64,000 nucleotides of DNA, from positions 23,003 to 87,002 of the forward strand of contig CALKUP010000002.1 of assembly GCA_937996685.1 (NCBI GenBank). Reading direction: 5' to 3'. Position 1 is the stretch's first letter; every line of letters starts with the position of its first letter. Of this stretch, positions 8,710-63,913 are shown one piece after another. The stretch is from an uncultured bacterium. Lineage in GTDB: Bacteria; Patescibacteriota; Patescibacteriia; UBA9570; XYC2-FULL-38-9. The notes below the pieces were generated by a model. It saw only the letters and a list, made by a program, of their open reading frames with translations, was not told where the DNA came from and searched no databases. The translations under genes were made by a program, and so were the position numbers.

Positions 8710-8749
8710 TCGAGATATTCACAGAAGGTGAATAGAAAAAATATTCGAA

Positions 8750-8781: not shown

Positions 8782-8783
8782 GA

Positions 8784-8799
8784 CCACTAGATGTAGTGG
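8784..8799. promoter_or_regulatory. NrdR-box-like palindrome, copy 1 (ccaCTAgATgTAGtgg)
   Basis: Matches the NrdR box consensus acaCwAtATaTwGtgt at most positions. An identical 16-mer ACTAGATGTAGTGGTT recurs 118 bp downstream. Lies upstream of the ribonucleotide reductase gene. Confidence 0.5.
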
Positions 8800-8901
8800 T
8801 TGTCCGCACCTCATCCACCTATTATCCACATTTTCGGTACATTGAATCTATGCTAGAATAAGGGTCAATCTAAGTCCCGCAGAATCGTGCACAGATTCTT
8901 C

Positions 8902-8917
8902 CAACTAGATGTAGTGG
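8902..8917. promoter_or_regulatory. NrdR-box-like palindrome, copy 2
   Basis: The same 16-mer core as copy 1, about 40 bp upstream of the RNR start codon, likely overlapping the promoter. Confidence 0.5.
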
Positions 8918-8958
8918 TTATAAACTAAAATGAATACAATAGAGCTTCTTTAACGCCT

Positions 8959-11250
8959 ATGGCAAAAAAAACCCCAACAAAAAAACTGACAGCTGGTGAG
9001 CTAAAAGAAATCACACAAATTCGTAAACGTGATTACACGTTGCAAAAATTCGACTTAGCACGAATTGAAAAAGCGATCACAAAAGCATTGCAAAGTACAA
9101 AAGAAGGTGGTGCTGCAGAAGCAAAACAAATTGCAACCGATGTGTTTCGTAAATTGCTCCAATCAAAAAAAGAATTCGCTGGTTTTTTGCCAACTGTCGA
9201 AGGTGTGCAAGATTTAGTAGAGCGTCAATTGATCTTGGGAGATTTTAATGAAACAGCAAAATCATATATTGCGTTTCGTGATGCGCGTGCGCTTGAGCGT
9301 GCAAAAGAAAATGCTGTGCCAAAGCATGTTGCAAAACTTGCGAAAGACAGTAAAAAATATTTCCGTAATTCATTGGGTGAGTTCGTGTACTATCGAACAT
9401 ATTCACGTTGGATTGAAGCAGAAAAACGTCGTGAAACATGGATTGAAACAGTTGAACGATATATTTCTTTCATGCAAGAAAATGTTGGAGACGCGCTCAC
9501 TGCTCGTGAATACAACGAAATTCGTCAAATGATTTTGACACACAGTGCAATGCCATCAATGCGTTTGATGCAATTCGCTGGAGAGCCAGCTCGCAAAACA
9601 AACGTCTGTGCCTATAATTGTTCATTTATCGCTCCAGAACGACTCGAAGATTTTGCAGAAATCATGTACATCTCAATGTGTGGAACCGGTGTTGGTTTTT
9701 CAGTAGAAGATAAGTTTGTGCAAAAATTGCCACAAATTGAATTTCAAAAAGGCAACAAAGCGAAAGTGCACGTTGTTGGTGACAGTAAAGAAGGTTGGGC
9801 TGATGCGCTGACAATCGGTTTGAAAGCGTGGTTCTCTGGAGAAGATGTGACATTTGATTACAGTCGAATTCGTCCAGCTGGTGCTCGTTTGAAAACAATG
9901 GGTGGAAAAAGTTCAGGACCTGAGCCACTCAAACAATTGATGCAATTTGCACGTGAAAAAATCATGGCACGCCAAGGTCGTCGTCTGACTGACATCGATG
10001 TACATGACATTGTCTGTAAGATCGGTGAAATCGTGGTTGCTGGCGGTGTGCGTCGCAGTGCGCTGATTTCATTGTCTGACCTTGATTCAGAAACATTGCG
10101 TGATGCAAAGACAGGTCAATTCTGGAACACAGAACCACAACGCAGTATGGCGAACAACTCTGCGGTATACGAACATAAACCGTCTGTAACAGAGTTCATG
10201 GAAGAATGGATGGCGCTTGTGAAATCAGGCTCTGGTGAGCGTGGTATTTTCAACCGAGCTGGTTTATTGAAAACATTGCCAGAACGTCGTTTGGAATTGT
10301 TGAACAATGACGTGTCTCGAATGGGAACAAACCCATGTGGTGAAATTCTGTTGCAATCAAAACAATTCTGTAATTTAACAGAAGTGATCGCGCGTGCGGA
10401 AGACACAGAAAAAACATTGATTCAAAAAGCGCGTATCGCGGCAATTCTTGGAACATTCCAATCATCACTCACAAATTTCCCATATCTCTCAAAAGAGTGG
10501 AAAGAAAATTGTGAAACAGAACGCTTACTTGGTGTGTCTGTCACTGGTCAATGGGATTGCAAAATTTCTCGAGATCCAAAAGTATTAGAAAAAATCAAGA
10601 AAGAGGCAATTCGTGTGAACCGTATCTATGCAAAAAAATTCGGTATCCCAGCATCTTCTTGTATCACAACTGTGAAACCATCTGGTACCGTGTCACAAAC
10701 TGTTGATTGTGCGTCTGGTATGCATCCACGTTTCGCTCCATATTACATCCGTCGTGTGCGTATCGCGTCATCTGATTCACTCTTCAAAATGTTGCGTGAC
10801 CAAGGTGTCCCATACAAACCAGAAGTTGGTCAATCAATGGAATCTGCAAGTACCTATGTATTTGAGTTCCCAGTAAAATCACCAAAAGGATCTATTTGCA
10901 ACGATGATTTATCAGCGTTAGAGCAATTAGAGCATTGGAAAGTGGTGAAAACAAGTTACACAGAACATAATCCATCTGTAACAATTTATATCGGTGATGA
11001 TGAATGGCTCACTGTAGCAAATTGGCTCTATGAAAATTGGGATATTGTCGGCGGCCTATCATTCTTGCCACGACAAAACCATGTCTACCAGCTTGCTCCA
11101 TATGAAGCGATTGATGAGAAGACATACAAAGAACTTCATGATTATATGAAGAACATCGATTTCTCAAAGATCGTTGAATATGAAAAAACAGATGAAGTTG
11201 ATGTGAAAAAAGAACTTGCATGTGCAGGTGGCGTGTGTGAAATCATCTAA
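8959..11250 (+). CDS. nrdJ: Ribonucleotide reductase, class II (adenosylcobalamin-dependent, NrdJ-like) with N-terminal ATP-cone
   Basis: ATP-cone at the N-terminus. Active-site NPCGEI motif, which is class II-type (class I has NLCxEI). C-terminal redox Cys pair CAGGVCEII. No nrdB/nrdF partner gene adjacent. Confidence 0.7.
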   Translation: MAKKTPTKKLTAGELKEITQIRKRDYTLQKFDLARIEKAITKALQSTKEGGAAEAKQIATDVFRKLLQSKKEFAGFLPTVEGVQDLVERQLILGDFNETAKSYIAFRDARALERAKENAVPKHVAKLAKDSKKYFRNSLGEFVYYRTYSRWIEAEKRRETWIETVERYISFMQENVGDALTAREYNEIRQMILTHSAMPSMRLMQFAGEPARKTNVCAYNCSFIAPERLEDFAEIMYISMCGTGVGFSVEDKFVQKLPQIEFQKGNKAKVHVVGDSKEGWADALTIGLKAWFSGEDVTFDYSRIRPAGARLKTMGGKSSGPEPLKQLMQFAREKIMARQGRRLTDIDVHDIVCKIGEIVVAGGVRRSALISLSDLDSETLRDAKTGQFWNTEPQRSMANNSAVYEHKPSVTEFMEEWMALVKSGSGERGIFNRAGLLKTLPERRLELLNNDVSRMGTNPCGEILLQSKQFCNLTEVIARAEDTEKTLIQKARIAAILGTFQSSLTNFPYLSKEWKENCETERLLGVSVTGQWDCKISRDPKVLEKIKKEAIRVNRIYAKKFGIPASSCITTVKPSGTVSQTVDCASGMHPRFAPYYIRRVRIASSDSLFKMLRDQGVPYKPEVGQSMESASTYVFEFPVKSPKGSICNDDLSALEQLEHWKVVKTSYTEHNPSVTIYIGDDEWLTVANWLYENWDIVGGLSFLPRQNHVYQLAPYEAIDEKTYKELHDYMKNIDFSKIVEYEKTDEVDVKKELACAGGVCEII

Positions 11251-52472: not shown

Positions 52473-53723
52473 ATGTATTTTAGCAGACGCATATCAAGGC
52501 GTAGTATTGCAGTTGGGCATTCTCCGGATAACGGTTTTATTTTTTTGCTATTGAATGCTAGTATTAGCTCTATGACAAAACGAGATCGTGGATTTTTTGA
52601 AAACCGGCGCGAGGCACGTTTTCGTGTTGCAATAGAGAGTGAGGCTGAAAAACAGCGTTTTCATGACCCGCATCCGCGTCCAGAATTTTCATCTGATCGA
52701 GAAATTACTAATGAAGTTTTAGGAAGATATATACGATTTGCGCAGCGCTTAGGACAAATGGAAGATTGGTTACGGCGTCAATCCTTAGATCTATTGTCCA
52801 ATGATCGCATCATCGACATGATTCGTGAGTTGGATATTCCAGCAGGTGAAGGCAATGCTCGCGAACAAATTTTAGAATTTTGTCAGTGGTGGAATGAAGC
52901 TGCTAACCGAGCACTGAAGAAAGAGGGTGATGTCATGACACAAGAGGAGCTGATTGGCGACAAGTCTGTTGATGCTGAGGTATTAGCCGCCCGCTTTTTT
53001 CAACGGTACTTTCATGAGCAACCCGTGGGACGAGTTGAATATGAACGGAAAGGTTTTTTTCTTGTGTTGTACGTAAACGACAAGGCAGATTTTCAAAAAA
53101 CTCTTCAGAAGTCGGAAAGTGGTGACACGGTCGGATTTTTTAAAGCACAGACGTGGGTCGCTGAAGTTCATCCGTTGCTCGATATAAACGAGTATCATGT
53201 TATGTATCAAGAAGAGAATGTTCCATTAATCGTCGTGCGTGCGGAGAAAGGAGCTCCAGAGGCAGAATTTACCTTTGAGCATGAATTACAACACGCGCTT
53301 AATTTTAGTGTGTTTAGGATTCCAAAAAATTACCAACGAGCCAGTGATGTCCATTCATCTCAAGAGGTAAGACGCTTGGTTATTACAGATGAGGTGATTT
53401 CTCATATTCGTAGCGGCGATCCTGAACATTTCCTTGAGCTATATACAGAAGCAGTATATAAAAGGGTATTAGAAAGTTGCGTTTCAGAAACAGATGGCAA
53501 TCCAATAAAAGGAAGTCGAGAAGATTGGTTACGTACACTTGATGACATTAGTACTGCAATGAAAGAATTACGTGGAATACTCGAACCGCGCCATCTCTAT
53601 ACTACGAGAGAGTACCGCTTGGTGGCATATATGCTTACTCAATTTCCCATTGAGCGTTTTGCTGAAGTCATTAGAAAATTTGGCAAGCGCATGGCCGACA
53701 CATTTGGCGAGCATCCTCAATAG
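52473..53723 (+). CDS. Hypothetical protein with HExxH motif (possible metalloprotease-like)
   Basis: FEHELQHALN contains an HExxH motif. The start is probably an internal Met (MTKRDRG...). Tentative. Confidence 0.35.
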   Translation: MYFSRRISRRSIAVGHSPDNGFIFLLLNASISSMTKRDRGFFENRREARFRVAIESEAEKQRFHDPHPRPEFSSDREITNEVLGRYIRFAQRLGQMEDWLRRQSLDLLSNDRIIDMIRELDIPAGEGNAREQILEFCQWWNEAANRALKKEGDVMTQEELIGDKSVDAEVLAARFFQRYFHEQPVGRVEYERKGFFLVLYVNDKADFQKTLQKSESGDTVGFFKAQTWVAEVHPLLDINEYHVMYQEENVPLIVVRAEKGAPEAEFTFEHELQHALNFSVFRIPKNYQRASDVHSSQEVRRLVITDEVISHIRSGDPEHFLELYTEAVYKRVLESCVSETDGNPIKGSREDWLRTLDDISTAMKELRGILEPRHLYTTREYRLVAYMLTQFPIERFAEVIRKFGKRMADTFGEHPQ

Positions 53724-53898
53724 GAATAGACCGTATTTTTTGTATTCCTAATATACCAAATAATCTATGGTTGTATTTTTTTGCTAACCCAGCGTTCCAG
53801 CTTCAAACATAAAAATCCCTTGTTGATGAATGCGCGACTTGGCAAATTCTAGGCACTTAATAAAAAAAGCCGTCAACAATGTGACGACCTTTCTTGTA

Positions 53899-53930
53899 TG
53901 CGGGAGCAAGTGGACGAGTTCAGAACTCTT
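53899..53930. repeat. Degenerate copy of the tRNA-Asp 3' end (candidate distal att site of the island)
   Basis: TGCGGGAGC is a 9/9 match to the tRNA-Asp 3' region (63838-63846 on the + strand), then GACGAG...AACTC partial matches after a 5-nt insertion. Imperfect, so tentative. Confidence 0.3.
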
Positions 53931-54003
53931 AATTGGGTCAAGATCCAAAAGGATTATGACCGCTTGTTTATCCAGTTGCCCGCGTTAGCGAAAGTATAGC
54001 GGA

Positions 54004-55497
54004 TTATAGTTTTTTGAGAAACTGGTAAATCTCGACCATCGCCCATGTGTCCATTTTACAATAGGCGAGTAGATCTTGTGCAATTTGCTGCTTTTCCTCC
54101 TCGTCGATCGATTTTGTCATCATTCGCTCCCAACGCTCGCTGGCTTGGTCACCTTTACGGATGTTCAATTCTTTGTAGGTCAGACTTGGAATAAGGACTG
54201 GGAGTATATTTTTAATACTTGATTTGCCTTTGAAATCAGGATCGACGTAAAGGTTGTTTGTGAAAATTGTTTCAAGGTCAAACATGGTTTCGTTCATTTC
54301 CTCAAAGAATCGTACGTGTTCAGGATGTAGTTGCGCCAGCTTTCGGTTTTGCTTTTTTTCATAAGCCGCGTGCCATGAAACGGCAGTACCTTTTTCCGAC
54401 ATATCTGCAACAAGTTGCTCAACTAAGGGTTTTGTTACTTCAGATTGTTTTTCTGTGATAAGGAACTCCGTATGCTCGACTGATCCGTCTTCATGTAAAA
54501 TGTGGAGAGAGTATTGAAACGGAACATGCTCATATGGCCCAAAACCATCAAAAAGGGGAATAGCTGCAATAAAGCCTTCATAGTCCAAGAAGTAGAGGGG
54601 AAATTGAAGTTCATTGAACATTTCTCGAATTGCCAAGCCATCAACAAAAGGCCTCTTCTGAATGTATGAAGAGATTTGGAGCTGTTGTCGGTCATTGAGT
54701 TTTTCTTCAATGACTTCTTCGAGCGTAAATCTTCCTTCATCGACCCAGTTCATCAGTTTCTTTTTGCTGTTTCCAATGCGATAGAGGTCGTGGATTGAGT
54801 ATTCAGGAACGACGGGGTTTGAATAGGCAAAGCTTGAACAATGAGCACTACGACCCTTGTATACACAATCACAACCGCTTTGTTCGTCCATTGCGAGCCA
54901 AATTTTCATTTCTTCCATTTCTCCCAAAACCTCAACTTCTACGTCTCGGATTTCATTGCTTATGTCTTCTGTAATAAACAGTTGATCATAATCAAGCTCG
55001 CCGTGCTTTCGGTATTCAGAGTTGAGATGTATGACTCCTGTTTTGACAACTCTTGCGCCACATTTTTGAATGACTTGCTTCTGAAAAGCCAAGTCTCTTA
55101 CATGATTACCAACGCCTGTTTTCTTTACTTCATTTGTTGCTTTGACTTCATAGAGCTCCCATCCGTTCAATCTGTTATCCCAAACTAAAACATCTGCACG
55201 AATAAAGAAGTTTTCAAATACGAATGTCCCTTGAAAAATTACCCTTGCCTTATCCGCAATAAGAAGGTTTGTATCTTCTATTGCTGTTGAACCGTGCGTG
55301 CTCACGAGAACACCATCAGGAAAGAGTTTGCGAGCAGCTTCGTCGGCGGCGTTTCCTTCTTCGATGATTTTCTTCTCAAAGTCAGATAGCTCAAAATCCT
55401 CAAAGAGTTCAGGTTTGTATTTTTTGAGCCACAGGTTTTTTCGGCAAAAACTGTACTCAAGGTAGTCGGTTTTTGTGATTTGCATAAGCTTAGCCAA
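54004..55497 (-). CDS. DUF2779-like two-domain nuclease (Cas4/RecB-like PD-(D/E)xK domain with Cys cluster plus C-terminal DEDDy-type exonuclease-like domain)
   Basis: N-terminal D...ELYEVKAT (PD-ExK-like) with Cys at SFCRK and a downstream CDCVYKGRSAHC cluster (Cas4-like C-x2-C-x5-C). The C-terminal region has YFLDYE (Exo I-like DxE) and YCKMD (Exo III YxxxD-like). Confidence 0.45.
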   Translation of the reverse strand: MAKLMQITKTDYLEYSFCRKNLWLKKYKPELFEDFELSDFEKKIIEEGNAADEAARKLFPDGVLVSTHGSTAIEDTNLLIADKARVIFQGTFVFENFFIRADVLVWDNRLNGWELYEVKATNEVKKTGVGNHVRDLAFQKQVIQKCGARVVKTGVIHLNSEYRKHGELDYDQLFITEDISNEIRDVEVEVLGEMEEMKIWLAMDEQSGCDCVYKGRSAHCSSFAYSNPVVPEYSIHDLYRIGNSKKKLMNWVDEGRFTLEEVIEEKLNDRQQLQISSYIQKRPFVDGLAIREMFNELQFPLYFLDYEGFIAAIPLFDGFGPYEHVPFQYSLHILHEDGSVEHTEFLITEKQSEVTKPLVEQLVADMSEKGTAVSWHAAYEKKQNRKLAQLHPEHVRFFEEMNETMFDLETIFTNNLYVDPDFKGKSSIKNILPVLIPSLTYKELNIRKGDQASERWERMMTKSIDEEEKQQIAQDLLAYCKMDTWAMVEIYQFLKKL

Positions 55498-55538
55498 GCA
55501 TACTTGAAAATGATTGTAAACTAAAGTAAAGTCTCGGC

Positions 55539-56711
55539 ATGTTTATTAAAGACCCCGAAAAACATTTGTCAGATCAGGCTTTTTTCAGCTATATCAAGTT
55601 TTTTGACTATGTCGTTTTGAAAAAAGATATTGATAATTATGACGATGATGGAGCATTTAGTATGCGTGATGTCAGCTTAGGTGGTGAGGATCAGGCAATG
55701 GTTTTTAACCGTATCTTGGACGGGGCAATAGCTGTACAGGCATCAGTGATTGCCAAGAAAGGTTATCGTTTTGATGATCAGATGAAGGAAACAAAGGAGG
55801 GGCTAAATGAGAAAGGTACAGATAGTGAAAAAAAGCGTATCTCAAAACTGATCGCATCCATAGAACGTGGAAAGGCTATAACAATCCAAGATGCGGCTGC
55901 ATTGTCATGGTTTTGGTTTGAAGTATACGATAGCATTCGTTTTACTCCTGAGTTGTGCAAAGTAAGCCCTGAAGTCAAAGACAATTTACAATCTGCTATT
56001 GAAGGTTACTTAGATGATTTCATCAATGATAAACTTTCAATTTCAAAAAAGAATTATTATCGGTTTGAGCGTCAAAAAGCCATTTTGATTAAACTGATAG
56101 AAGAAGATAATAAAATTGCAAAGTATGGCAATAATTTTATCATTCGCGAAAAAATAGGCCGTGATGGCTCACTTGAGCGAGCGCCTGATTTTTGCATTGT
56201 TCAAACGGTTTACGCTTTGCAGAAATTAGGATATTTGAAAGTCATGAACGTCTGGGAGGAAAGACAATATAAAGACAATGCCTATGACGATTTGGTTCCC
56301 TTTGTGAACGTCAACATTCTGCTTGATGAAATGTTTATTGAGGAAATCAATAATAGCTATAAGAAAGGAAACCCAAAAAACGTATTTGAAAAATTTGATG
56401 AAAAGCGTGGGGTCTTATTTTTTGCAGGGAAGGAAATTACCATTTCAAAGAAAGGGAAAGAAACGGATGCGATTTTATTGATAAAGACACTCCTTAAAAA
56501 AGAACCGCAAACGTGGAAGTACAACGATGAAATTTTAGAAGATTGGGGATATACGGAAGATGACATGGAAAGGCTTCCGAAGAACAAGGTATATTTTGCT
56601 GCTCAAAAAGCAAATCAGGCGATTGCTTTGGTGGCTCAAATTGATGATTTTATTGAATGTAATACGACAAAAGCGCGTATAAACCCGAAATACATAAAAG
56701 TTGATGGATAA
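55539..56711 (+). CDS. Hypothetical protein (island cargo, unknown function)
   Basis: 390-aa ORF, AT-rich codon usage like the rest of the island. No recognisable motifs. Confidence 0.4.
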   Translation: MFIKDPEKHLSDQAFFSYIKFFDYVVLKKDIDNYDDDGAFSMRDVSLGGEDQAMVFNRILDGAIAVQASVIAKKGYRFDDQMKETKEGLNEKGTDSEKKRISKLIASIERGKAITIQDAAALSWFWFEVYDSIRFTPELCKVSPEVKDNLQSAIEGYLDDFINDKLSISKKNYYRFERQKAILIKLIEEDNKIAKYGNNFIIREKIGRDGSLERAPDFCIVQTVYALQKLGYLKVMNVWEERQYKDNAYDDLVPFVNVNILLDEMFIEEINNSYKKGNPKNVFEKFDEKRGVLFFAGKEITISKKGKETDAILLIKTLLKKEPQTWKYNDEILEDWGYTEDDMERLPKNKVYFAAQKANQAIALVAQIDDFIECNTTKARINPKYIKVDG

Positions 56712-56932
56712 TTGATCAATTTTCGGCAACATTTACAAATACCCTTTCATTTAGTCTGAGGCTACAACCTCAGATTTTATGATTAGCAAACAAGAAGCCA
56801 AAATCAATCAGCTGCAAGATGCGGGCCATGAAATGGTCGATCAGGGCACGCTTTTTGAGTTTTTTGCATTGCTTCTCAAAGTCGATCAGAGGGTGAATCC
56901 ACATCTGTATAATCAACTTAAACAAGAAAATA

Positions 56933-58060
56933 ATGATTGATACAATTATCTTAATCATCCCAAGAGACAAGTTTATCTTTCTCGACCTTTCGAATGAAGG
57001 GGTGTCGAATTGGCATCTACAAAGCCACACCGACGCATACATGAAGTACATAAAAAATCCGAAGGTGCTCGCTAAGCGCACAGGCAAGTATTACCCACGC
57101 CTCACTGAGTATGTTCGCAAGTATGGTAACGATCGAAGTGTCAAAATTGAACTCTCGCTCCCAAAATTGATCTTTCTCAATAATCTTGATGAGCTGGAAG
57201 ACAAGGATTTCGATAGAGTTGTAGAAACACTACAGAGTCGTTTGAAGGAAATGGGAGTAGTAGTTGAACGTAAAGACATTGAAGTAGCAAAGGTCGGCAG
57301 CGTTCATTTTTCTAAAAACATTTTACTGCAAGATGGGTACACGTCGAACTATGTGATTTCTGAAATCGGCAAAATCGATTTACGAAAAACCTTTGACTTC
57401 GCCCGTGCGCGGTACATCAATGACGGTCAAAGTCTTTGTGCGCATACCACTTCACATGAGTTTGTTGTTTACGATAAAATCGCTGATCTACATAAAGGTC
57501 AAAAACGAGCGATTGATAAAGATCAAACTTCATTTCAACTCAGTTTATTCAAAGCCGAGAAAAAAGTATCGTACGAAGTCGTGCGTTTTGAAATTCGTTT
57601 GGCAAAGAAGCAAAAAATGAACAGCGTGCTCACAAAAATTGGTTATGAAAAAGACCCGATATTCAAAGATGTATTTAGTAGCGACCTGAGCATGAAAGTT
57701 GTGAGCCTGTATTGGGAGGGTGTTGTACAGACTAGAAATATCGGTCTATTTGCCACAGAAATGAGCAACAAGGAAAAATTGAGAAAAATTTACAAGCATT
57801 TTCCGAACATCAAACCTGCGCGTGCAATTTACCTTGTTGGCTTATTGAATCTTGCGCGAGAGCAGTACGGAATGGGAGAGTTACGTTCGATAGTAAGCGC
57901 AAAAAGTGGAGACAGAACGTGGTATCGAATAATGTCAGATTTTCGGAGTGTATCGGAGTTGATCGCACTACAAGATATTCGAGGCTGGGTGGGGCAAGTT
58001 AATTCTGCATTCACAAAATACAGACCACTTCGCCTGCAATTGCTAAGTAAAGAAAAGTAA
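56933..58060 (+). CDS. Hypothetical protein (island cargo, unknown function)
   Basis: 375-aa ORF. No catalytic motif identified (I looked for HUH/Rep motifs and found none). Confidence 0.4.
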   Translation: MIDTIILIIPRDKFIFLDLSNEGVSNWHLQSHTDAYMKYIKNPKVLAKRTGKYYPRLTEYVRKYGNDRSVKIELSLPKLIFLNNLDELEDKDFDRVVETLQSRLKEMGVVVERKDIEVAKVGSVHFSKNILLQDGYTSNYVISEIGKIDLRKTFDFARARYINDGQSLCAHTTSHEFVVYDKIADLHKGQKRAIDKDQTSFQLSLFKAEKKVSYEVVRFEIRLAKKQKMNSVLTKIGYEKDPIFKDVFSSDLSMKVVSLYWEGVVQTRNIGLFATEMSNKEKLRKIYKHFPNIKPARAIYLVGLLNLAREQYGMGELRSIVSAKSGDRTWYRIMSDFRSVSELIALQDIRGWVGQVNSAFTKYRPLRLQLLSKEK

Positions 58061-58069
58061 AGTATAATT

Positions 58070-58837
58070 TTGACTATGGTAAATACATTCAAAGGCGTGG
58101 CTTACGAGATTTTGAAAGAGGTGGGTAAGCCCCTTCACGCAGATGAGATTACGAAAATCGCTCTCGAGCGAGGGTGGTTAAACACAGCAGGAAAAACACC
58201 AGCGGCAACGATGAACGCTCAGCTTGTCGTTGATGTAAATAAAAATGGTGAAAAGTCTCTTTTTGTGAAGACTGGACCGAGTACATTTGCTCTCAATTCA
58301 GAAGTTCGATTAGCAAAGAAAACTAGCCTTACAGAAGAGCAGGAAGAAAAGGAGTATGCGGTTTCCAGTACCTTAATGTCGGTTCAAAAGGGAAACATCG
58401 TTGAGGCGCGTGTATCAGAATTAGTGTTATTATATGGAGCGAACTTGTCATGTTATCGGCCACTGACTGATGACGAAGGAATTGATCTGATTGTAAAAGA
58501 AAAAGGGAGTCTCAAATCCATTTACATTCAGATTAAAAGCAACTTTAGTGATGATTTTGGAAAACCGTTTGTGGCAACAGTTCGGAACAAGAGTGTAGTC
58601 GATAATTATGCTATGGCGTATGTGTTCTGTTTATTTGATACTGGAAAAGCTGATGTTCACGATTATATTTGGTTTGTGCCCGCCCCTGATTTTATTCGCA
58701 TGGCAGGTAAAGACAAGAATGATTTACTTGGTTTTGTGTCTGGCAAACAGAAGAAGAGTAGCAACAAGTGGGATGCTTTTATGATTGATAAAAGAGATTT
58801 AGCGAATAGAGTTATGGAGCAATTAAAACGCATATGA
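58070..58837 (+). CDS. HARE-HTH domain fused to a PD-(D/E)xK restriction-endonuclease-like domain
   Basis: N-terminal A.EIL..G.PL...EI......G........P.AT....L motif with ...FALN (HARE-HTH). C-terminal D-EGIDLIV-KEK PD-(D/E)xK core (Mrr-like). Confidence 0.5.
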   Translation: MTMVNTFKGVAYEILKEVGKPLHADEITKIALERGWLNTAGKTPAATMNAQLVVDVNKNGEKSLFVKTGPSTFALNSEVRLAKKTSLTEEQEEKEYAVSSTLMSVQKGNIVEARVSELVLLYGANLSCYRPLTDDEGIDLIVKEKGSLKSIYIQIKSNFSDDFGKPFVATVRNKSVVDNYAMAYVFCLFDTGKADVHDYIWFVPAPDFIRMAGKDKNDLLGFVSGKQKKSSNKWDAFMIDKRDLANRVMEQLKRI

Positions 58838-59010
58838 CAACAAAAGATTTTTACACCGCACAAGAACTCGCCGAAAAGTTGGAGGTAAATATCATGACGA
58901 TTTACCGATACATAAAGGCTGGAAGGCTTAGTGCTTACAAGATAGGGAAGGAGTTCCGAATAGCAAAAAAAGACTTTGATACATTTTTGAAAAAAGCAAG
59001 CACAAAGTGA
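58834..59010 (+). CDS. Excisionase/MerR-like HTH DNA-binding protein (58 aa)
   Basis: ATG overlaps the upstream stop (ATGA). TIYRYIKAGRLSAYKIGKEFRI matches the HTH_17/Xis-type helix-turn-helix. Too short to appear in the ORF track. Confidence 0.5.
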   Translation: MTTKDFYTAQELAEKLEVNIMTIYRYIKAGRLSAYKIGKEFRIAKKDFDTFLKKASTK

Positions 59011-59014
59011 ACGT

Positions 59015-60940
59015 ATGACAACAACACAACAAATTCTCAATAAAATTTTCAAAAACCCCGAGCAGGACCTTTTGATGTTTGATGACTTGTCCAAGATAGA
59101 CATCTACGAAAAAGATGAAGGAAAGTTCTACATCAAGGCTATTTCAAAAATGGATGAAGAGAAAAAAGTTTATGATGCTAAAACTGGAAAAGGCGCTCCT
59201 GAAGAAATTGTTCGACAGCTGTATCTTGTAAAACTCACAAAGCATTACAAGTACCCCAAAGACCTTATTGAGCTTGAAAAGCACGTCAACTTTGGACGTG
59301 AAATAAAGCGTGCAGACATTGTTGTGTACCGACCAGATGGCATTACACCTAAAATCATCATTGAAGTAAAAGCTCCTAATCAAGAGAATGATGTACAGCA
59401 ATTGAAGTCATATCTAAATGCTGAAGGCGCGCCTGTGGGTGTTGCGGTAAACGGCAAAACTCGCCTCATTCTTTATCGTCCATACCCGAAAGATTTTGAT
59501 GACACATTGGATGACATTCCAGCTTCAGATGAAGAGGTTGAAGACGTGCTTGCAAAACGAAAGACCCTGAACGACTTGAGAGAAGATGACCTCAAGGAAA
59601 CTATCAAAACTCTTGAAGAGCTTGTGCTTGCAAACTCAGGACACGATAGCTTTGAAGAAATCTTCAAGATCATATACGCCAAGCTTTTTGATGAAAAAGA
59701 AGCATTAAGCCGTCCAAATCAAGAGCTTCACTTCAGAAAAAGTCCGACAGGAAAACCCGAAGAAACAAAACGCATCATTGACGAACTTTTTGAAGAAGCA
59801 AAAGCAGAATGGTCTGATGTGTTTGAGCGTACTGATAGGATAAAGCTCAGTCCTGAGCATCTTTCTGTGTGTGTCGGGGAACTTCAAGATGTTCGATTGT
59901 TCGGGGCAAACCTGCGCATTATTGATGAAGCATTTGAGTATCTCTTGCCAGATGTTGCTAAAGGCAAGAAAGGTCAATACTTTACACCGCGCGTTGTCAT
60001 CGATATGTGTGTTCAGATGATGAACCCGCAAAAAAAAGAATACGTTATTGATACTGCTTGTGGGAGCGCTGGTTTTTTGGTGCATGCCATGCAGTATGTT
60101 TGGAAAAATTTACCCACTCTTGAAGCACGGAAAGAATATGCAAGTAGATATTTGTGGGGTGTAGATTTTGACGAGAAATCAACAAAAATTAGCCGCGCAA
60201 TTATGTTGATTGCGGGAGATGGCAAGAGTCATATTTTCAAGTCATCTTCATTAGATACCCGAGAGTGGCCTGAGCGTTTCAAAAGTGAATTACAAGATTT
60301 GAATCTTGTACAGGAGTTTGATGACTATGAGCAAAATCGAGAGAATCGAGCTACATTACAACACCTCGAATTTGATGTGCTTCTCGCTAATCCGCCATTC
60401 GCAGGCGAAATTAAAGAGAAGCATCTCTTGACTCAGTATGTTCTTGGTAAAAACAATAAAGGCAAGCTTCAAAATAAGGTAGAGCGACACTTGCTCTTCA
60501 TTGAACGCAACCTTGAGTTTGTAAAAGCAGGTGGTCGTTTAGCGGTTGTGTTGCCACAAGGCATCTTTAACAACACAAGCCAAGAGTATGTTCGCAAACA
60601 CATAATGCGGAAAGCGCGCATTCTTGCGGTTGTAGGGCTGCATGGAAACTCTTTTAAGCCTCACACAGGAACAAAGACATCAATCATCTTCTTGCAGAAG
60701 TGGGCAGATGAGGAGCTTGATGCAAGCGGTAGTCCGAAGGTTGCTGACTATCCGATTTTCTTTGCTACTCAAAAGCAATCGTTCAAAAATAACAGTGGCG
60801 ATTACATCTTTGAGAAAGACAAGGGCGGTCAAATTGTTAAAGACGACAACGGTAATCCTAAATATCTAAGTGACCTTGATGAAATCGCTGAAGCGTTTGT
60901 GGCTTGGGGCAAAGAGCAAGGTCTTAGCTTTCTGAAATAA
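59015..60940 (+). CDS. hsdM: Type I restriction-modification N6-adenine DNA methyltransferase subunit with N-terminal HsdR_N-like (PD-(D/E)xK-like) extension
   Basis: Motif IV NPPF (LANPPFAG), motif I region DTACGSAGFL, and the HsdM helical domain. The N-terminal ~170 aa contain D-IVVY...IIIEVK resembling the HsdR N-terminal nuclease-like domain. Confidence 0.7.
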   Translation: MTTTQQILNKIFKNPEQDLLMFDDLSKIDIYEKDEGKFYIKAISKMDEEKKVYDAKTGKGAPEEIVRQLYLVKLTKHYKYPKDLIELEKHVNFGREIKRADIVVYRPDGITPKIIIEVKAPNQENDVQQLKSYLNAEGAPVGVAVNGKTRLILYRPYPKDFDDTLDDIPASDEEVEDVLAKRKTLNDLREDDLKETIKTLEELVLANSGHDSFEEIFKIIYAKLFDEKEALSRPNQELHFRKSPTGKPEETKRIIDELFEEAKAEWSDVFERTDRIKLSPEHLSVCVGELQDVRLFGANLRIIDEAFEYLLPDVAKGKKGQYFTPRVVIDMCVQMMNPQKKEYVIDTACGSAGFLVHAMQYVWKNLPTLEARKEYASRYLWGVDFDEKSTKISRAIMLIAGDGKSHIFKSSSLDTREWPERFKSELQDLNLVQEFDDYEQNRENRATLQHLEFDVLLANPPFAGEIKEKHLLTQYVLGKNNKGKLQNKVERHLLFIERNLEFVKAGGRLAVVLPQGIFNNTSQEYVRKHIMRKARILAVVGLHGNSFKPHTGTKTSIIFLQKWADEELDASGSPKVADYPIFFATQKQSFKNNSGDYIFEKDKGGQIVKDDNGNPKYLSDLDEIAEAFVAWGKEQGLSFLK

Positions 60941-60942
60941 CT

Positions 60943-62358
60943 ATGTCTTGGCAAACCATTGTAAAAGAAAATAAGCTCGCAGTAGCAGAAATACCTTTTG
61001 ATGAGGTATTGAATATCAATCGGCTTGATGCTGAGTATTTTGACCCTTTTTACCTTGAGCAAGACAGTGTACTCAATGGTAAAAATCTTGTTCCAATCAC
61101 GCAGTATATTGATATTTCAGACGGAAATCACTTGTCTATTACGGAACATTTTGTTGAAGAGGGAGGTGTTCCTTATTTTCGAGGACAAGACGTAAACAAC
61201 ATATTCCTCAACTCAGCGAGCCCGATGAGGATATCAGAAGAAATCTACAAAAAGGGTTGGATGAAGAGATCTCATTTTAAGGCTAATGATATTCTGCTTT
61301 CCATTGTAGGTACTATAGGCGGCTTATCCTTTGTCCCTGACGATATGGGTGAAGCATCAGGTAGTTGCAAAATAGCAATACTCAGACCAAAAGACACATC
61401 CTTTTCAAAGATTGTCATGGTCTTTCTGCTTGGAAAGTATGGTCAGTATCAACTAAAGAGAATGACCCGTGGTGCAGTGCAAATGGGTATCATTCTTGAA
61501 GATATACCTAAAATTAAAATCCCTAATTTTTCAGAAACAATTGCTTCAGAAGTAAGTCACTTGATTTCAAATGTATTTGAAAGCGAGACTCTGTCACGAA
61601 AACGTTACGAGGAAGCAGAGCAGATGCTTCTTAAAGAAATTAACCTTGAAGGCTACAAAGGAACTGAAGAAGCTGTATCGGTTCGAAACTTCAGTGAAGC
61701 ATTGTCTCATAATCGTTTTGATGCAGAGTATTGGCAGCCTGACTATGATGTCATTCTTGATACGCTCTCATCATATAAAAAAGGTGTCAGCACTATAGGT
61801 GATGAGTTCAAACAACTCAAAAACAATTTCAAGAAGGACAAGGAAAAAGAATACAGCTATATTGAGATTGGCGATGTTAATGTATCGACGGGTGAAGTGG
61901 ATAGAAACATAATCATCGGTGCTGAGTTGCCTGCAAACGCCAAAATCAAGCTTGGTAAGCGACAACTCATCACTTCAAAGGTCAGGCCAAATAGAGGTGC
62001 AACAGCTATACTTGATGATCACGAGGGTTATATCGGAAGTGGTGCATTTACCGTATTGACCGAGCAAGAAAACATCAATCTTGAAACGCTAATGGTGTTC
62101 CTGAAAATGCGACCTATCCGAGAGTTGCTTCTACGATACAACACGGGAACTTCATATCCCGTTATCACTGATGCTGATGTACTGAAGTTGCCAATACCTT
62201 TGATTGATAAAGTGGTTCAGAAGAAAATCAGCGAACTTGTAAGTGAGTCCGCTAAAGAGCGACAGGAAGCAAAGGCTTTACTCGAAAAGGCAAAGCGAGC
62301 TGTAGAAATCTTTGTTGAAAAGGATGAACAAAGCGCATTAAAATATCTTCAAGCATGA
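60943..62358 (+). CDS. hsdS: Type I restriction-modification specificity subunit (two target-recognition domains)
   Basis: Two TRD halves separated by conserved coiled-coil repeats. Immediately follows hsdM. Confidence 0.7.
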   Translation: MSWQTIVKENKLAVAEIPFDEVLNINRLDAEYFDPFYLEQDSVLNGKNLVPITQYIDISDGNHLSITEHFVEEGGVPYFRGQDVNNIFLNSASPMRISEEIYKKGWMKRSHFKANDILLSIVGTIGGLSFVPDDMGEASGSCKIAILRPKDTSFSKIVMVFLLGKYGQYQLKRMTRGAVQMGIILEDIPKIKIPNFSETIASEVSHLISNVFESETLSRKRYEEAEQMLLKEINLEGYKGTEEAVSVRNFSEALSHNRFDAEYWQPDYDVILDTLSSYKKGVSTIGDEFKQLKNNFKKDKEKEYSYIEIGDVNVSTGEVDRNIIIGAELPANAKIKLGKRQLITSKVRPNRGATAILDDHEGYIGSGAFTVLTEQENINLETLMVFLKMRPIRELLLRYNTGTSYPVITDADVLKLPIPLIDKVVQKKISELVSESAKERQEAKALLEKAKRAVEIFVEKDEQSALKYLQA

Positions 62359-63878
62359 AAGCAGTCATCCTAGCTCGAGTATCAACGGAAGAACAACGAG
62401 AAGCTGGAAACTCTTTGCCTGCACAGATTGCCCGTATCGAAAATTATTGCGATAAGAAAAACTTCATTGTAGTTGAGACTTTTAGTTTTGATGAAAGTGC
62501 ATATAAAACAAAGCGAGACGAGTTTGATCGTATTCTTGAATATCTCAAAAATACCAATGAAAAAATTGCGGTCTGTTTCGATAAAGTAGATCGTCTGTCA
62601 CGCAATCAATTTGATAAACGTGTTTCGTTGCTTTATGAAAAAGCGGTTGCAGGAGACATTGAATTGCATTTTATTTCAGATGGTCAGGTTATCAATGATC
62701 AAATGTCTGCTGTTGAGAAGTTTCAGTTTGGAATGAGTCTCGGTTTAGCAAAGTATTATTCAGACGCTATTTCTGACAATGTAAAACGTGCATATGAGCA
62801 AAAACGTCGAAAAGGTGAATGGATAGGCAAAGCTCCCATTGGCTATAAAAATGCTGTTGATCTAAAAGGAAATAAAACAATTGAAATTGATGTCATAGTC
62901 GCGCACTTACTTGCAAAAGTATTTGAGTTATATAGCACAGGTAATTATTCGTATGAGTCGATTATTGATGAGCTCACAAAGCAAGGATTAAAAACTCAAG
63001 GAGGTAAGCGAATGACCAAGAGTGTAATTGAGAAGATTATAAAGAATCCGTTTTATTGTGGCATCGCTAGTTCACCGACTCACGGACAGTATCCGCACAA
63101 GTATGAACAGTTGATTACAAAGGAGCTGTTTGATCGCTGTCAGGAGATCCGTTTGAAGAAGCGAAAATTTCCAAATAAAGAGAAATCGGAGAAGTATGTA
63201 TTTAAGGGATTGTTGCGCTGTCAAAATTGCGGCTGTGCCATAACGCCAGAAAAGAAAACGAAACCAAGTGGTAAAACCTACACCTATTATTCTTGCACGA
63301 ATGCGAAGAAGATATGCAAACGTGTGTATGTTTCCGAAACCGAGCTTCTAAGGCCCGTAGAAGCGATTTTAGAGCGTTTTGAGCGTATTCCTGTAGCCAC
63401 GCAAGATAAGATTGTTGAATCGCTCCGTAAGTCTTCTGAGGCAGAGGTTGAATTTCATAAGGCTCAAGTGCTACGCATCCGACAAGATCAAGATATGTAC
63501 ACACAGCGGAAAGATGCCTTGCTCGATCTTTTGCTTGATAAGAGTATTACCAAGGAACAGTATGACAAAAAATTGCAGGAATACAGCGACAAGCTGCAAT
63601 TGCTCAACATTGAATACGAAGAACATACAAAAGCGGACTGTGATTACCAAACCACAATAGCCACAGTGTTTTCTTTAGCTCGACGTGCAAAACAAATCTT
63701 TTATAGTTCTGAAATCAATGAGCAACGTGCGTTTATTCGATACTTACTTCAGAACCCGACTGTAAATGAAAAGAAGCTACATTTTACAGTAGCTTCTCCA
63801 TACAATTCTCTCCTCGAACTATCTGATAGTCCTTTTGTGCGGGAGCGACGAGACTCGAACTCGCGACCTCTGCCGTGA
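62355..63878 (+). CDS. Large serine recombinase (resolvase/invertase catalytic domain plus recombinase domain plus zinc ribbon)
   Basis: N-terminal AVILARVSTEEQ with catalytic Ser. A central recombinase domain. A Cys cluster CQNCGC...C. The 3' end runs about 39 nt into tRNA-Asp. Confidence 0.75.
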   Translation: MKAVILARVSTEEQREAGNSLPAQIARIENYCDKKNFIVVETFSFDESAYKTKRDEFDRILEYLKNTNEKIAVCFDKVDRLSRNQFDKRVSLLYEKAVAGDIELHFISDGQVINDQMSAVEKFQFGMSLGLAKYYSDAISDNVKRAYEQKRRKGEWIGKAPIGYKNAVDLKGNKTIEIDVIVAHLLAKVFELYSTGNYSYESIIDELTKQGLKTQGGKRMTKSVIEKIIKNPFYCGIASSPTHGQYPHKYEQLITKELFDRCQEIRLKKRKFPNKEKSEKYVFKGLLRCQNCGCAITPEKKTKPSGKTYTYYSCTNAKKICKRVYVSETELLRPVEAILERFERIPVATQDKIVESLRKSSEAEVEFHKAQVLRIRQDQDMYTQRKDALLDLLLDKSITKEQYDKKLQEYSDKLQLLNIEYEEHTKADCDYQTTIATVFSLARRAKQIFYSSEINEQRAFIRYLLQNPTVNEKKLHFTVASPYNSLLELSDSPFVRERRDSNSRPLP

Positions 63879-63913
63879 CAGGGCAGCGCTCTAACCAGCT
63901 GAGCTACGCCCCC
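63840..63913 (-). tRNA. tRNA-Asp (anticodon GUC)
   Basis: Reverse complement GGGGGCGTAGCTCAGCTGGTTAGAGCGCTGCCCTGTCACGGCAGAGGTCGCGAGTTCGAGTCTCGTCGCTCCCG; anticodon loop CTGTCAC. Confidence 0.8.

What the first reader, a model, noticed from the sequence alone, without database searches (positions are those of the whole stretch)
53899..63913. About 10 kb AT-rich island integrated at tRNA-Asp carrying a cluster of nuclease, methylase and unknown genes (candidate undescribed defence module)
A large serine recombinase gene terminates about 39 nt inside tRNA-Asp, the classic geometry of an element that integrated into and reconstituted a tRNA 3' end. About 10 kb away is a degenerate copy of that tRNA 3' end (TGCGGGAGC...GACGAG...AACTC). 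Between them every gene is defence-like or unknown: a DUF2779-like dual nuclease, two unknown proteins of 390 and 375 aa, a HARE-HTH/PD-(D/E)xK endonuclease, an Xis-like HTH, and a type I M+S pair without R. The composition is visibly more AT-rich than the flanking housekeeping genes. The two unknown ORFs sitting between nucleases are the best candidates for a new defence or abortive-infection activity.
Basis: partly seen in the sequence, partly recalled or inferred. Interest (0 to 1): 0.75.

Follow-up and report, generated by a model that had tools for sequence, protein, structure and literature searches.

The report
Mobile restriction-modification carrier in tRNA-Asp
The 10-kb island is a small mobile DNA element that a serine recombinase inserted into a tRNA-Asp gene of a Patescibacteria (CPR) bacterium. 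It belongs to a large family, for which I found no published description, that moves restriction-modification genes between these bacteria, and its two "unknown" genes are the element's own replication and DNA-binding genes, not a new defence system.

Summary
A 9,939-bp segment lies between two copies of TGCGGGAGC (53899-53907 and 63838-63846). It has 39.7% GC against 44.5% for the rest of the window. The right copy is the 3' end of tRNA-Asp, and the 507-aa large serine recombinase ORF reads 40 nt into that tRNA.

It is a mobile element, not the proposed new defence module. A 91-95% identical relative assembles as an 8.6-kb circle in which the two window ends are joined through one core copy. 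Its recombinase is 527 aa, exactly as predicted by joining the window's two junctions.

Eighty Patescibacteria genome loci carry the Rep gene, and most share the order: DNA-binding protein, small ORF, Rep, HTH_17, cargo, recombinase. The recombinase ORF usually ends inside a tRNA (mostly Asn). The cargo slot mostly holds restriction-modification genes.

- The "375-aa unknown" is a G2P/Rep_trans-type rolling-circle initiator.
- The "390-aa unknown" is a winged-helix DNA-binding protein.
- The "degenerate tRNA copy" is attL. Its tRNA-like motif is displaced by exactly 5 bp, the known attP/attB offset of serine integrases.
- The cargo here is a HARE-HTH nuclease plus a nuclease-fused N6-methylase and S subunit (type IIB/IIG-like).

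I found no paper describing this family.

The parts
53899..53907 (+). attL core TGCGGGAGC. It is a direct repeat of the tRNA-Asp 3' terminus and contains the crossover.
   Evidence: Exact 9-mer. Identity to the circular relative L087 starts at 53893. Three-way alignment.
53908..53999 (+). P' arm of the attachment site. The motif GACGAGnnnnGAACTC at 53913-53928 lies 5 bp further from the core than in the tRNA. In the excised circle this stretch supplies the last 30 codons and the TAG stop (53997-53999) of a 527-aa recombinase.
   Evidence: Joining 62355-63846 to 53908 onward gives a 527-aa ORF. This matches P0243 (527 aa), found on circular contigs. The 5-bp offset rule is from PMC3783163.
54004..55497 (-). 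Accessory nuclease of 497 aa, with an N-terminal Cas4/RecB-like domain and a C-terminal DUF2779/RNase H-like domain. It is part of the element.
   Evidence: Pfam DUF2779 9.3e-36; PADLOC Cas4 7e-5; TIGR03491. It sits directly after the recombinase in circular relatives L089 and L090 at 91% nucleotide identity. Homologues lie in the same position in L019, L041, L047 and L054.
55539..56711 (+). 390-aa backbone protein with a C-terminal OmpR/PhoB-type winged-helix DNA-binding domain. Presumed regulator or origin-binding factor.
56779..56940 (+). 53-aa ORF overlapping the Rep start by 8 nt. A positional equivalent of about 50 aa occurs in related elements.
   Evidence: the same arrangement is seen in L001, L004, L087 and L091. 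No Pfam hit.
56933..58060 (+). 375-aa rolling-circle replication initiator or nickase of the G2P (Phage_CRI)/Rep_trans superfamily. It is the hallmark gene of the element family.
58070..58837 (+). 255-aa HARE-HTH plus PD-(D/E)xK nuclease, cargo in the slot between Rep and HTH_17.
   Evidence: Pfam HARE-HTH 9e-21; weak PDDEXK_5 and Mrr_cat hits. An 80% identical homologue sits in the same slot in L052.
58834..59010 (+). 58-aa HTH_17 (excisionase/MerR-type) protein, found in most related elements just before the cargo. Candidate directionality factor or regulator.
   Evidence: Pfam HTH_17 2.8e-13. An ORF of 57-65 aa sits in this position in most related loci.
59015..60940 (+). 641-aa fusion of an HSDR_N_2 PD-(D/E)xK nuclease domain (D101...E117-x-K119 intact) with a gamma-class N6-adenine methyltransferase.
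   Evidence: Pfam HSDR_N_2 5.8e-22 and N6_Mtase 5e-36. Closest solved relative is the type IIB enzyme RM.BsaXI, 7.9e-28. MAD2 model 290 bits against a cutoff of 720.
60943..62358 (+). 471-aa specificity (S) subunit with two target-recognition domains.
   Evidence: Pfam Methylase_S; PADLOC Specificity_I 8e-24; MAD5 118 bits against a cutoff of 400.
62355..63878 (+). Large serine recombinase, 507 aa in the integrated state. The last 10 codons and the stop are read from the antisense strand of the host tRNA.
   Evidence: Pfam Resolvase, Recombinase and Zn_ribbon_recom; PHROG integrase 1.6e-75. 95% nucleotide identity to L087 up to 63846.
63838..63846 (+). attR core TGCGGGAGC, covering the discriminator base and the acceptor-stem 3' strand of tRNA-Asp.
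63839..63913 (-). Intact tRNA-Asp(GTC), the integration target (attB). The B' arm motif GACGAGnnnnGAACTC lies at 63847-63862.
   Evidence: ARAGORN, Rfam, sequence.

Best explanation
The segment 53908-63846 is an intact 9.9-kb integrative element of a Patescibacteria (CPR) genome. It belongs to a widespread family with a fixed backbone and exchangeable cargo.

Proposed mechanism:
1. The large serine recombinase recombines an attP site embedded in the 3' end of its own gene with the 3' end of tRNA-Asp (attB). The crossover falls inside the shared 9-bp core TGCGGGAGC, so the tRNA stays intact.
2. Excision regenerates a circle in which the recombinase ORF runs on into the element's other end, giving 527 aa instead of 507 aa.
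3. The circle is probably copied by rolling-circle replication started by the 375-aa G2P/Rep_trans-type initiator. The winged-helix protein and the small HTH_17 protein probably act in regulation or directionality.
4. The element carries a restriction-modification-type cargo: a HARE-HTH nuclease, a nuclease-methylase fusion and an S subunit. This would protect the host and stabilise the element.

Shown computationally: the boundaries, the core, the circular form of a close relative, the family-wide architecture and tRNA targeting, and the fold and family assignments.

Inferred: catalysis by this recombinase, replication by Rep, the roles of the two HTH proteins, activity of the cargo, and the route of cell-to-cell transfer.
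For: 1. Boundaries. Identity to the circular relative stops at 63846 and resumes at 53893. The alignment shows the relative's attP equals the window's right junction up to the core plus the left junction after the core.

2. Circular form. L087 and L088 are both 8657 nt, come from two sequencing runs, are exact rotations of each other, and have a 30-nt terminal overlap. L089 and L090 span the junction from recombinase to DUF2779 nuclease.

3. A prediction made beforehand. Joining the window's junctions gives a 527-aa recombinase ending ...REQVDEFRTLNWVKIQKDYDRLFIQLPALAKV. The database cluster-mate P0243 is 527 aa and ends ...REQVDEFRTLNWVRIQKDFDRLLYQLPTLAKV.

4. Family. There are 810 Rep homologues and 1151 representatives at 50% identity. 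Eighty genome loci come from many Patescibacteria lineages.
- In 38 of 58 loci with a complete recombinase, the ORF ends 13-65 nt inside an opposite-strand tRNA: 33 Asn, 3 Gln, 1 Asp, 1 Leu.
- At least 4 more end in intron-bearing tRNA-Asn genes.
- In 9 loci a 16-24-nt repeat of the tRNA 3' end (some with a mismatch or a 1-nt gap) lies 5.8-14.3 kb upstream.

5. Cargo. The slot between HTH_17 and the recombinase mostly holds DNA methylases, ResIII proteins and named type II endonucleases.

6. Rep assignment. Winged-helix assignment.

7. Attachment sites. GACGAGnnnnGAACTC lies 5 bp further from the core in the P' arm than in the tRNA. This matches the shift of the zinc-ribbon-domain (ZD) binding motif between attP and attB reported for serine integrases (PMC3783163).

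8. Composition is lower in GC than everywhere else in the window.
Against: - No empty tRNA-Asp site in a sister genome could be found. The flanking 416-aa gene is an ORFan, and exact scans for attB and for attL/attP found nothing in JGI metagenomes.
- The circle is that of a relative, 91-95% identical in the backbone with different cargo, not of this copy.
- No transfer machinery, recombination directionality factor or replication origin has been identified.
- The 5-bp offset is clear only for the P'/B' arms, not for the other arms.
- The source is a metagenome-assembled genome.
Confidence: 0.85

Rival explanations
1. One reading: a defence island in which the 390- and 375-aa ORFs, lying between nucleases, encode a new defence or abortive-infection activity.
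For: Neither protein has a Pfam, PHROG or NCBIfam assignment. Both sit among nuclease and methylase genes.
Against: The 375-aa protein is the element's hallmark gene across 80 loci with unrelated cargo, and it belongs to the G2P/Rep_trans initiators. The 390-aa protein fills a backbone slot and has a transcription-factor-type winged helix. Neither hits PADLOC. The variable, defence-like genes lie elsewhere, between Rep and the recombinase.
Confidence: 0.04
2. A fossil island: an old insertion that can no longer move, with the left repeat being a decayed tRNA duplicate.
For: Only 9 bp of exact repeat, against 16-24 bp in nine other family members. The free alignment score is not significant.
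Against: All backbone ORFs are full length and keep every family-invariant residue. The 'decayed' sequence is identical in the circular relative, so it is a functional P' arm. Serine integrases need only a short core identity (PMC3783163). A 91-95% identical relative exists as a circle in four sequencing runs.
Confidence: 0.08
3. The 375-aa protein acts mainly as a relaxase. On this view the element is an integrative mobilisable element transferred as single-stranded DNA by a helper conjugation system, not a self-replicating circle.
For: From my own knowledge, Rep_trans-type proteins serve as MOBT relaxases in ICEs and IMEs of Firmicutes, and the ICEBs1 relaxase NicK does both jobs. The fold evidence cannot separate the two roles.
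Against: No coupling protein or type IV secretion gene lies in the element or in the related loci inspected. The Pfam matches are to the replication family Phage_CRI. The circle assembled as its own contig in two runs, which is compatible with, but does not prove, a replicating circle.
Confidence: 0.2
4. A prophage, inovirus-like element or phage satellite.
For: G2P-type initiators are typical of filamentous phages. The size of 8-10 kb fits. The recombinase matches PHROG integrase.
Against: No capsid, coat, morphogenesis ATPase or terminase matches were found; only the methylase, S subunit and recombinase hit PHROGs. No relative of Rep exists among 2.9 million IMG/VR viral contigs. The cargo is restriction-modification genes.
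Confidence: 0.04

Closest known systems
Actinomycete integrative and conjugative elements of the pSAM2 type (from my own knowledge)
   Same: A small element integrated in the 3' end of a tRNA gene. It has an xis-like HTH gene, a site-specific recombinase and a rolling-circle Rep, and it alternates between integrated and replicating circular states.
   Different: pSAM2 uses a tyrosine integrase with a long tRNA identity segment, a RepSA-type initiator and an FtsK-like Tra protein. This element uses a large serine recombinase with a 9-bp core and a G2P/Rep_trans-type initiator, has no transfer gene, and lives in Patescibacteria.
Integrative mobilisable elements of Firmicutes with serine recombinases and Rep_trans/MOBT relaxases (reviewed in PMC5704250, listed but not read; my own knowledge)
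   Same: A compact module of serine recombinase plus Rep_trans-superfamily nickase plus cargo.
   Different: Those elements depend on helper conjugation systems and target protein-coding or other sites. Here the target is a tRNA 3' end with attP inside the recombinase ORF, no helper system is known, and sequence similarity is only at superfamily level.
Phage large serine integrases (A118/LI, Bxb1, phiC31) and their attP/attB logic (PMC3783163)
   Same: Same three-domain recombinase. Short core identity. The ZD-type motif is displaced 5 bp between attP and attB half-sites.
   Different: This is not a phage. The target is a tRNA 3' end that must be reconstituted. attP lies within the recombinase coding sequence, so integration changes its C-terminus in this lineage.
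Staphylococcal cassette chromosome (SCC) elements
   Same: Cargo cassettes inserted at a conserved gene's 3' end by Ccr large serine recombinases. The NCBIfam CcrB model hits the window recombinase at 1.3e-24.
   Different: The score is far below the family cutoff (87 versus 900 bits). The target is rlmH, not a tRNA. The replication genes differ and the cargo is resistance genes.
Tycheposons of Prochlorococcus (bioRxiv 10.1101/2020.12.28.424599, listed but not read; my own knowledge)
   Same: Small cargo-carrying elements at tRNA genes in streamlined genomes that lack conjugation, some with replication modules.
   Different: They mostly use tyrosine recombinases, carry different hallmark genes and metabolic cargo, and occur in cyanobacteria.
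Type IIB/IIG restriction-modification enzymes (BsaXI, BcgI) and the MAD2/MAD5 pair of the MADS system
   Same: A nuclease-methylase fusion working with a separate S subunit. RM.BsaXI is the closest solved relative. The MAD2 and MAD5 models match.
   Different: The BsaXI match covers only the methylase core. The MAD2 and MAD5 scores are far below cutoff and the other MADS genes are absent. Activity and cleavage pattern are untested.

Membership tests
Integrative element mobilised by a large serine recombinase | Recombinase with Resolvase, Recombinase and zinc-ribbon domains at one end of the element | tested here: met
   Pfam 7.8e-22, 4.3e-16 and 1.8e-08; the catalytic Ser is in the motif ARVSTEEQ.
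Integrative element mobilised by a large serine recombinase | attL and attR share a core, and the sequences outside it differ as hybrid sites should | tested here: met
   9-bp core at 53899 and 63838; three-way alignment with attP of a relative; BLAST breakpoints at 63846 and 53893.
Integrative element mobilised by a large serine recombinase | An excised circular form carrying attP exists | tested here: met
   Met for a 91-95% identical relative: rotated 8657-nt contigs with 30-nt overlap, plus two junction-spanning contigs. Not observed for the window's own copy.
Integrative element mobilised by a large serine recombinase | An unoccupied attB in a related genome | tested here: inconclusive
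   No exact attB in JGI metagenomes. The flanking gene has no homologue at all, so no sister genome could be reached.
Integrative element mobilised by a large serine recombinase | The attP half-site motif lies 5 bp further from the centre than in attB | tested here: met
   GACGAGnnnnGAACTC starts 6 nt after the core in attL and 1 nt after it in the tRNA, with 12 of 16 positions matching (rule in PMC3783163). Seen on the P'/B' arms only.
G2P (Phage_CRI)/Rep_trans rolling-circle initiators (375-aa protein) | Sequence membership in PF05144 or PF02486 | tested here: inconclusive
   The window protein has no hit. In alignment A1, 1 of 27 members hits each family weakly. Among divergent members, 15 of 56 match Phage_CRI (best 1.8e-10) and one passes the curated cutoff (30.0 versus 21.7 bits). 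These are linked to the window protein at 100% hhalign probability.
G2P (Phage_CRI)/Rep_trans rolling-circle initiators (375-aa protein) | Rep_trans fold | tested here: met
G2P (Phage_CRI)/Rep_trans rolling-circle initiators (375-aa protein) | Catalytic tyrosine and a cognate nick site or origin | not testable with these tools
   Tyr180 (YDK) is invariant in both alignments but was not mapped onto the known active site. No origin was identified; a 15-nt-arm inverted repeat at 56747-56782 is only a candidate.
Known anti-phage defence systems (390- and 375-aa ORFs) | Match to a defence-system model, or co-variation with defence cargo | tested here: not met
   No PADLOC hits. Both genes are backbone and are present whatever the cargo.
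Classical type I restriction-modification | HsdM, HsdS and an HsdR helicase-nuclease | tested here: not met
   M-like and S-like proteins are present, but no SF2 helicase subunit lies in the island. Instead an HSDR_N_2 nuclease domain is fused to the methylase.
MADS (methylation-associated defence system) | MAD2 and MAD5 equivalogs plus the remaining mad genes | tested here: not met
   MAD2 scores 290 bits against a cutoff of 720, and MAD5 scores 118 against 400. No other mad genes are present.
Prophage, inovirus or satellite | Virion or packaging genes, or relatives among viral contigs | tested here: not met
   No structural PHROG hits. No Rep relative in IMG/VR.

The most novel reading that the evidence does not exclude
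These elements are a previously unrecognised, phylum-wide class of miniature mobile elements that both integrate and replicate: a serine recombinase with attP inside its own gene, plus a G2P-type Rep. On this reading they are a principal vehicle by which Patescibacteria exchange restriction-modification systems, and they spread without any conjugation genes, for example by natural transformation of the circle.

A more speculative rider applies to the window's lineage. Swapping the recombinase C-terminus on integration (30 residues in the circle, 10 read off the tRNA when integrated) could act as a state sensor for directionality. I put that rider alone at about 0.1, because about half of the related elements have identical tails in both states.
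Probability: 0.4. Interest if true: 0.7.

Novelty: new variant of a known kind. Interest (0 to 1): 0.55.

Why it matters
Few mobile elements are known in Patescibacteria, and these bacteria are very hard to manipulate genetically. From my own knowledge, they largely lack CRISPR and are thought to rely on restriction-modification for defence.

A common, compact element family with a fixed backbone and a cargo slot filled mostly with restriction-modification genes would explain how such systems move among these reduced genomes.

It would also supply ready-made parts for genetics in CPR bacteria:
- serine integrases with defined attP sites
- conserved tRNA-Asn and tRNA-Asp attB sites
- a small replicating circle that could serve as a vector backbone

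For the scan itself, the lesson is that 'unknown ORFs between nucleases' can be the element's own replication and regulation genes.

Tried and rejected
- Exact look-ups of the window's recombinase, the 416-aa flank protein and P0001 in the contig index found nothing.
- The free Smith-Waterman test of the repeat was not significant on its own, so I did not rely on it.
- Empty-site search: the attB pattern and the attL/attP pattern found no matches in JGI metagenomes. The 416-aa flank protein has no homologue among 5.8 billion proteins. The sister-genome test could therefore not be done.
- The viral-contig scan with the Rep profile found no relatives.
- A Foldseek search of the Rep model against PDB was not significant. 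A profile search of PDB sequences gave nothing. The AFDB50 library was unavailable.
- I looked for circular signatures in the other 88 loci and found none. Short contigs L091-L096 are integrated copies cut near their ends.
- The left end of L047, the other tRNA-Asp element, was not found.
- A C-terminal swap as a family-wide regulatory switch is rejected as a general feature. In L004, L020, L027 and L065 the stop codon lies inside the repeat and both states give the same protein.
- The third TGCGGGAGC at 36184 is a chance match inside a large ORF.
- Five literature searches found no description of this family.

Full report
WHAT IS IN THE SEQUENCE

ARAGORN and Rfam place an intact tRNA-Asp(GTC) at 63839-63913 on the minus strand. 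The ORF 62355-63878 (507 aa) has the three domains of a large serine recombinase. It has no stop until TGA at 63876-63878, 40 nt inside the tRNA.

The 9-mer TGCGGGAGC covers the discriminator base and the acceptor-stem 3' strand of the tRNA (63838-63846). It recurs at 53899-53907, in the intergenic gap between an ORFan gene (52473-53723) and a DUF2779 nuclease gene (54004-55497, minus strand). It occurs three times in the window against 0.40 expected; the third copy, at 36184, is a chance match inside a 1013-aa ORF.

The 9,939 bp between the two cores have 39.7% GC, against 44.5% for the rest of the window. That is lower than any of 176 equal-sized windows elsewhere.

A free local alignment of the tRNA end against the upstream 9 kb picks this same site as best hit. 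Its score (22) is no better than shuffles (mean 20.6, maximum 26). Taken alone, the repeat would not have been convincing.

WHY THE BOUNDARIES ARE NEVERTHELESS CERTAIN

The window's recombinase shares its 90%-identity cluster with a 527-aa protein, P0243. P0243 is encoded on four short contigs from four sequencing runs.
- L087 and L088 are both 8657 nt. They are exact rotations of one another and carry a 30-nt terminal overlap, which is the signature of a circle of 8627 bp.
- On L089 and L090 the recombinase gene is followed directly by the DUF2779 nuclease gene, then a 435-aa gene, a 66-aa gene and Rep.

BLASTN of the island against this circle gives 95% identity over 62355-63846 and 91% over 53893-55291, and these two matches abut on the circle. 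The three-way alignment shows that the relative's attP equals the window's right junction up to the core plus the window's left junction after the core.

Before seeing P0243, I had predicted that joining the window's two junctions would extend the recombinase ORF to 527 aa ending …REQVDEFRTLNWVKIQKDYDRLFIQLPALAKV. P0243 is 527 aa and ends …REQVDEFRTLNWVRIQKDFDRLLYQLPTLAKV.

So the crossover lies within the 9-bp core, the nuclease gene belongs to the element, and a very close relative exists as a circle.

THE FAMILY

The 375-aa protein has 810 homologues at about 55% identity and uniform length, labelled Patescibacteria wherever a label exists. A profile search finds 1151 representatives at 50% identity.

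A scan of species-representative genomes returned 80 loci. Most are labelled as Patescibacteria lineages, including Saccharibacteria, Paceibacteria, Nomurabacteria, Uhrbacteria, Gracilibacteria, Kaiserbacteria, Wolfebacteria and Magasanikbacteria.

The usual gene order is:
1. a protein of 200-550 aa
2. an ORF of about 50 aa
3. Rep
4. an optional small or medium ORF
5. an HTH_17 protein of about 58 aa
6. mostly two or three cargo genes
7. the large serine recombinase

tRNA targeting across the family:
- In 38 of 58 non-redundant loci with a complete recombinase gene, the ORF ends 13-65 nt inside an opposite-strand tRNA: 33 Asn, 3 Gln, 1 Asp, 1 Leu.
- At least four more run into tRNA-Asn genes that ARAGORN missed because a group I intron interrupts them.
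- In nine loci a 16-24-nt repeat of the tRNA 3' terminus (some with a mismatch or a 1-nt gap) lies 5.8-14.3 kb upstream, at scores well above shuffles.

Reading of the recombinase ORF into the tRNA is therefore a family trait. It arises because attP sits at the very end of the recombinase gene. The conserved protein ends at …LELxDSP, just before the tRNA boundary, and the tail length depends on where the first stop falls.

THE TWO 'UNKNOWN' PROTEINS

The 375-aa protein:
- Foldseek found nothing significant, and the window protein itself has no Pfam hit.
- Among more divergent family members, 15 of 56 match Pfam Phage_CRI (G2P N-terminal; best 1.8e-10) and 4 match Rep_trans. One member checked individually passes the curated cutoff (30.0 versus 21.7 bits).
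- These members align to the window's subfamily over the full length at 100% hhalign probability.
- Tyr180 in a YDK motif is invariant across both alignments.
- I therefore assign it, at about 0.85 confidence, to the G2P/Rep_trans superfamily of rolling-circle initiators or nickases.

The 390-aa protein:
- The slot it occupies is filled in other elements by one of two unrelated families (36 and 31 loci; hhalign probability 0.05%, printed as 0.1).

Neither protein hits any defence model. They are backbone genes, not cargo.

THE CARGO

Across 62 related loci, 128 ORFs of at least 120 aa lie between Rep and the recombinase. Of these, 124 were scanned against Pfam (the four largest were left out). 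The hits were mainly:
- N6_N4_Mtase (20), C5 DNA_methylase (17), ResIII (13), D12 methylase (10) and type III methylase (5)
- named type II endonucleases, including HindIII, HpaII, BpuJI, AlwI, HaeII, Tsp45I, HinP1I and ThaI

In the window the cargo has three parts:
- a HARE-HTH plus PD-(D/E)xK nuclease, with an 80% identical homologue in the same slot in L052
- a 641-aa protein with an N-terminal HSDR_N_2 nuclease domain (D101…E117-x-K119 intact) fused to an N6-adenine methylase
- an S subunit with two recognition domains

The closest solved relative of the methylase is the type IIB enzyme RM.BsaXI. The MAD2 and MAD5 models match far below their cutoffs, and no other MADS genes are present. 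The circular relative carries instead a single 841-aa HSDR_N_2-methylase fusion.

So nearly identical backbones carry different cargo, which shows cassette exchange.

THE ATTACHMENT SITES

The circular relative conserves it base for base, so it is the element's own P' arm.
- After the core, the tRNA reads GACGAG-ACTC-GAACTC.
- After the core, the P' arm reads AAGTG-GACGAG-TTCA-GAACTC.
- The 16-nt motif matches at 12 positions and is displaced by exactly 5 bp.

Rutherford et al. (PMC3783163) showed that the motif bound by the recombinase's zinc-ribbon domain (ZD) is shifted 5 bp toward the centre in attB relative to attP. The window's sites fit that rule on this pair of arms. The other pair shows no clear pattern.

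Only 9 bp of identity are needed because the tRNA-derived part replaced on integration is just the last few nucleotides.

MECHANISM AND RIVALS

Most likely (0.85), this is an intact integrative element that cycles between a tRNA-Asp-integrated state and a circle, with a restriction-modification cargo. The recombinase, Rep and HTH roles are inferred from homology.

Whether the Rep protein mainly replicates the circle or acts as a relaxase for transfer is open; I give about 0.2 to the relaxase-only reading. No transfer genes are present.

The other readings are unlikely:
- a new defence activity in the two ORFs (0.04)
- a dead remnant (0.08)
- a prophage or satellite (0.04); only the methylase, S subunit and recombinase hit PHROGs, and no Rep relative exists in IMG/VR

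The C-terminal swap of the recombinase (527 versus 507 aa) is real in this lineage. It is not a family-wide feature, because in about half of the tested elements the stop lies inside the repeat.

COMPARISON AND NOVELTY

In kind, this resembles the following:
- tRNA-integrating, rolling-circle-replicating elements such as pSAM2-type AICEs
- serine-recombinase IMEs with Rep_trans-type nickases
- SCC cassettes
- tycheposons

It differs in the combination of features: a serine recombinase with attP inside its own ORF, tRNA 3'-end targeting, a G2P-type Rep, a cargo slot that mostly holds restriction-modification genes, no transfer genes, and restriction to Patescibacteria.

Five full-text searches found no description of it. 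That is absence from the searched library, not proof of novelty. I rate it a new variant of a known kind.

LIMITS

- No empty site could be found.
- The circle is that of a relative, not of this copy.
- All functions are inferred.
- The source is a metagenome-assembled genome.

Noticed in passing
L045 15853-16069 (-), L058 14043-14323 (-), L025 14605-14921 (-), L044 6464-6734 (-): The tRNA-Asn genes targeted by these elements carry a group I intron (Rfam RF00028, 55-90 bits). It begins after GATTA in the anticodon region, which is why ARAGORN missed them. L012, L054 and L073 show the same sequence pattern by eye.
   Followed up: partly
L012 11118-11675, L034 11106-11630, L040 6974-7447, L052 11114-11605, L048 6288-7058: Directly after Rep, some elements encode a protein of about 150-250 aa that resembles only residues 115-265 of the large serine recombinase. 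It is a stand-alone 'Recombinase' domain without the catalytic domain, and could be a partner or directionality factor.
   Followed up: no
Slot upstream of Rep in 71 loci; window 55539-56711: Two unrelated protein families occupy this slot (36 and 31 loci; hhalign probability 0.05%, printed as 0.1). Lengths vary from 200 to 549 aa. Only family A, the window's family, was modelled.
   Followed up: partly
window 52473-53723: The 416-aa gene flanking the element on the host side has no homologue other than itself among 5.8 billion proteins. It has no Pfam, PHROG, NCBIfam or PADLOC hit, and its GC (42.3%) is slightly below the window mean.
   Followed up: partly
L021 and L023 (MNVN01 contigs); L016 and L052 (JBBQRF01 contigs): Two separate copies of the element family occur in one genome assembly, in a Nomurabacteria MAG and in a Paceibacteria MAG.
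   Followed up: no
L026, L038, L041, L059, L062, L064, L085: Some contigs carrying the element are labelled Pacearchaeota, Kapaibacterium, Neomarinimicrobiota, Gammaproteobacteria (including a 1.34-Mb contig) or Coxiellaceae. This could be mislabelling or mis-binning of Patescibacteria, or real spread beyond the phylum.
   Followed up: no
L001, L016, L023, L042, L044: Several long assembly contigs end within a few hundred bases to about 1.5 kb of the element's backbone start. The elements may be repeated or polymorphic in the sampled populations and may break assemblies.
   Followed up: no
window 56747-56782: An inverted repeat with 15-nt arms and a 6-nt loop lies just upstream of the small ORF and Rep, where nucleotide identity to the circular relative resumes (56752). 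It could be a terminator of the 390-aa gene or a candidate replication origin hairpin.
   Followed up: no
L012 7981-8106 (-): Rfam LOOT RNA match (69 bits) about 2 kb upstream of Rep, next to the start of the upstream gene (8182-9708).
   Followed up: no
L004 7057-9013; L047 6900-8871: The region between attL and the backbone also carries variable genes on the opposite strand: Peptidase_S51 and DUF3800 in L004, and the DUF2779 nuclease in the window, L019, L041, L047 and L054. The elements therefore have a second cargo bay.
   Followed up: partly
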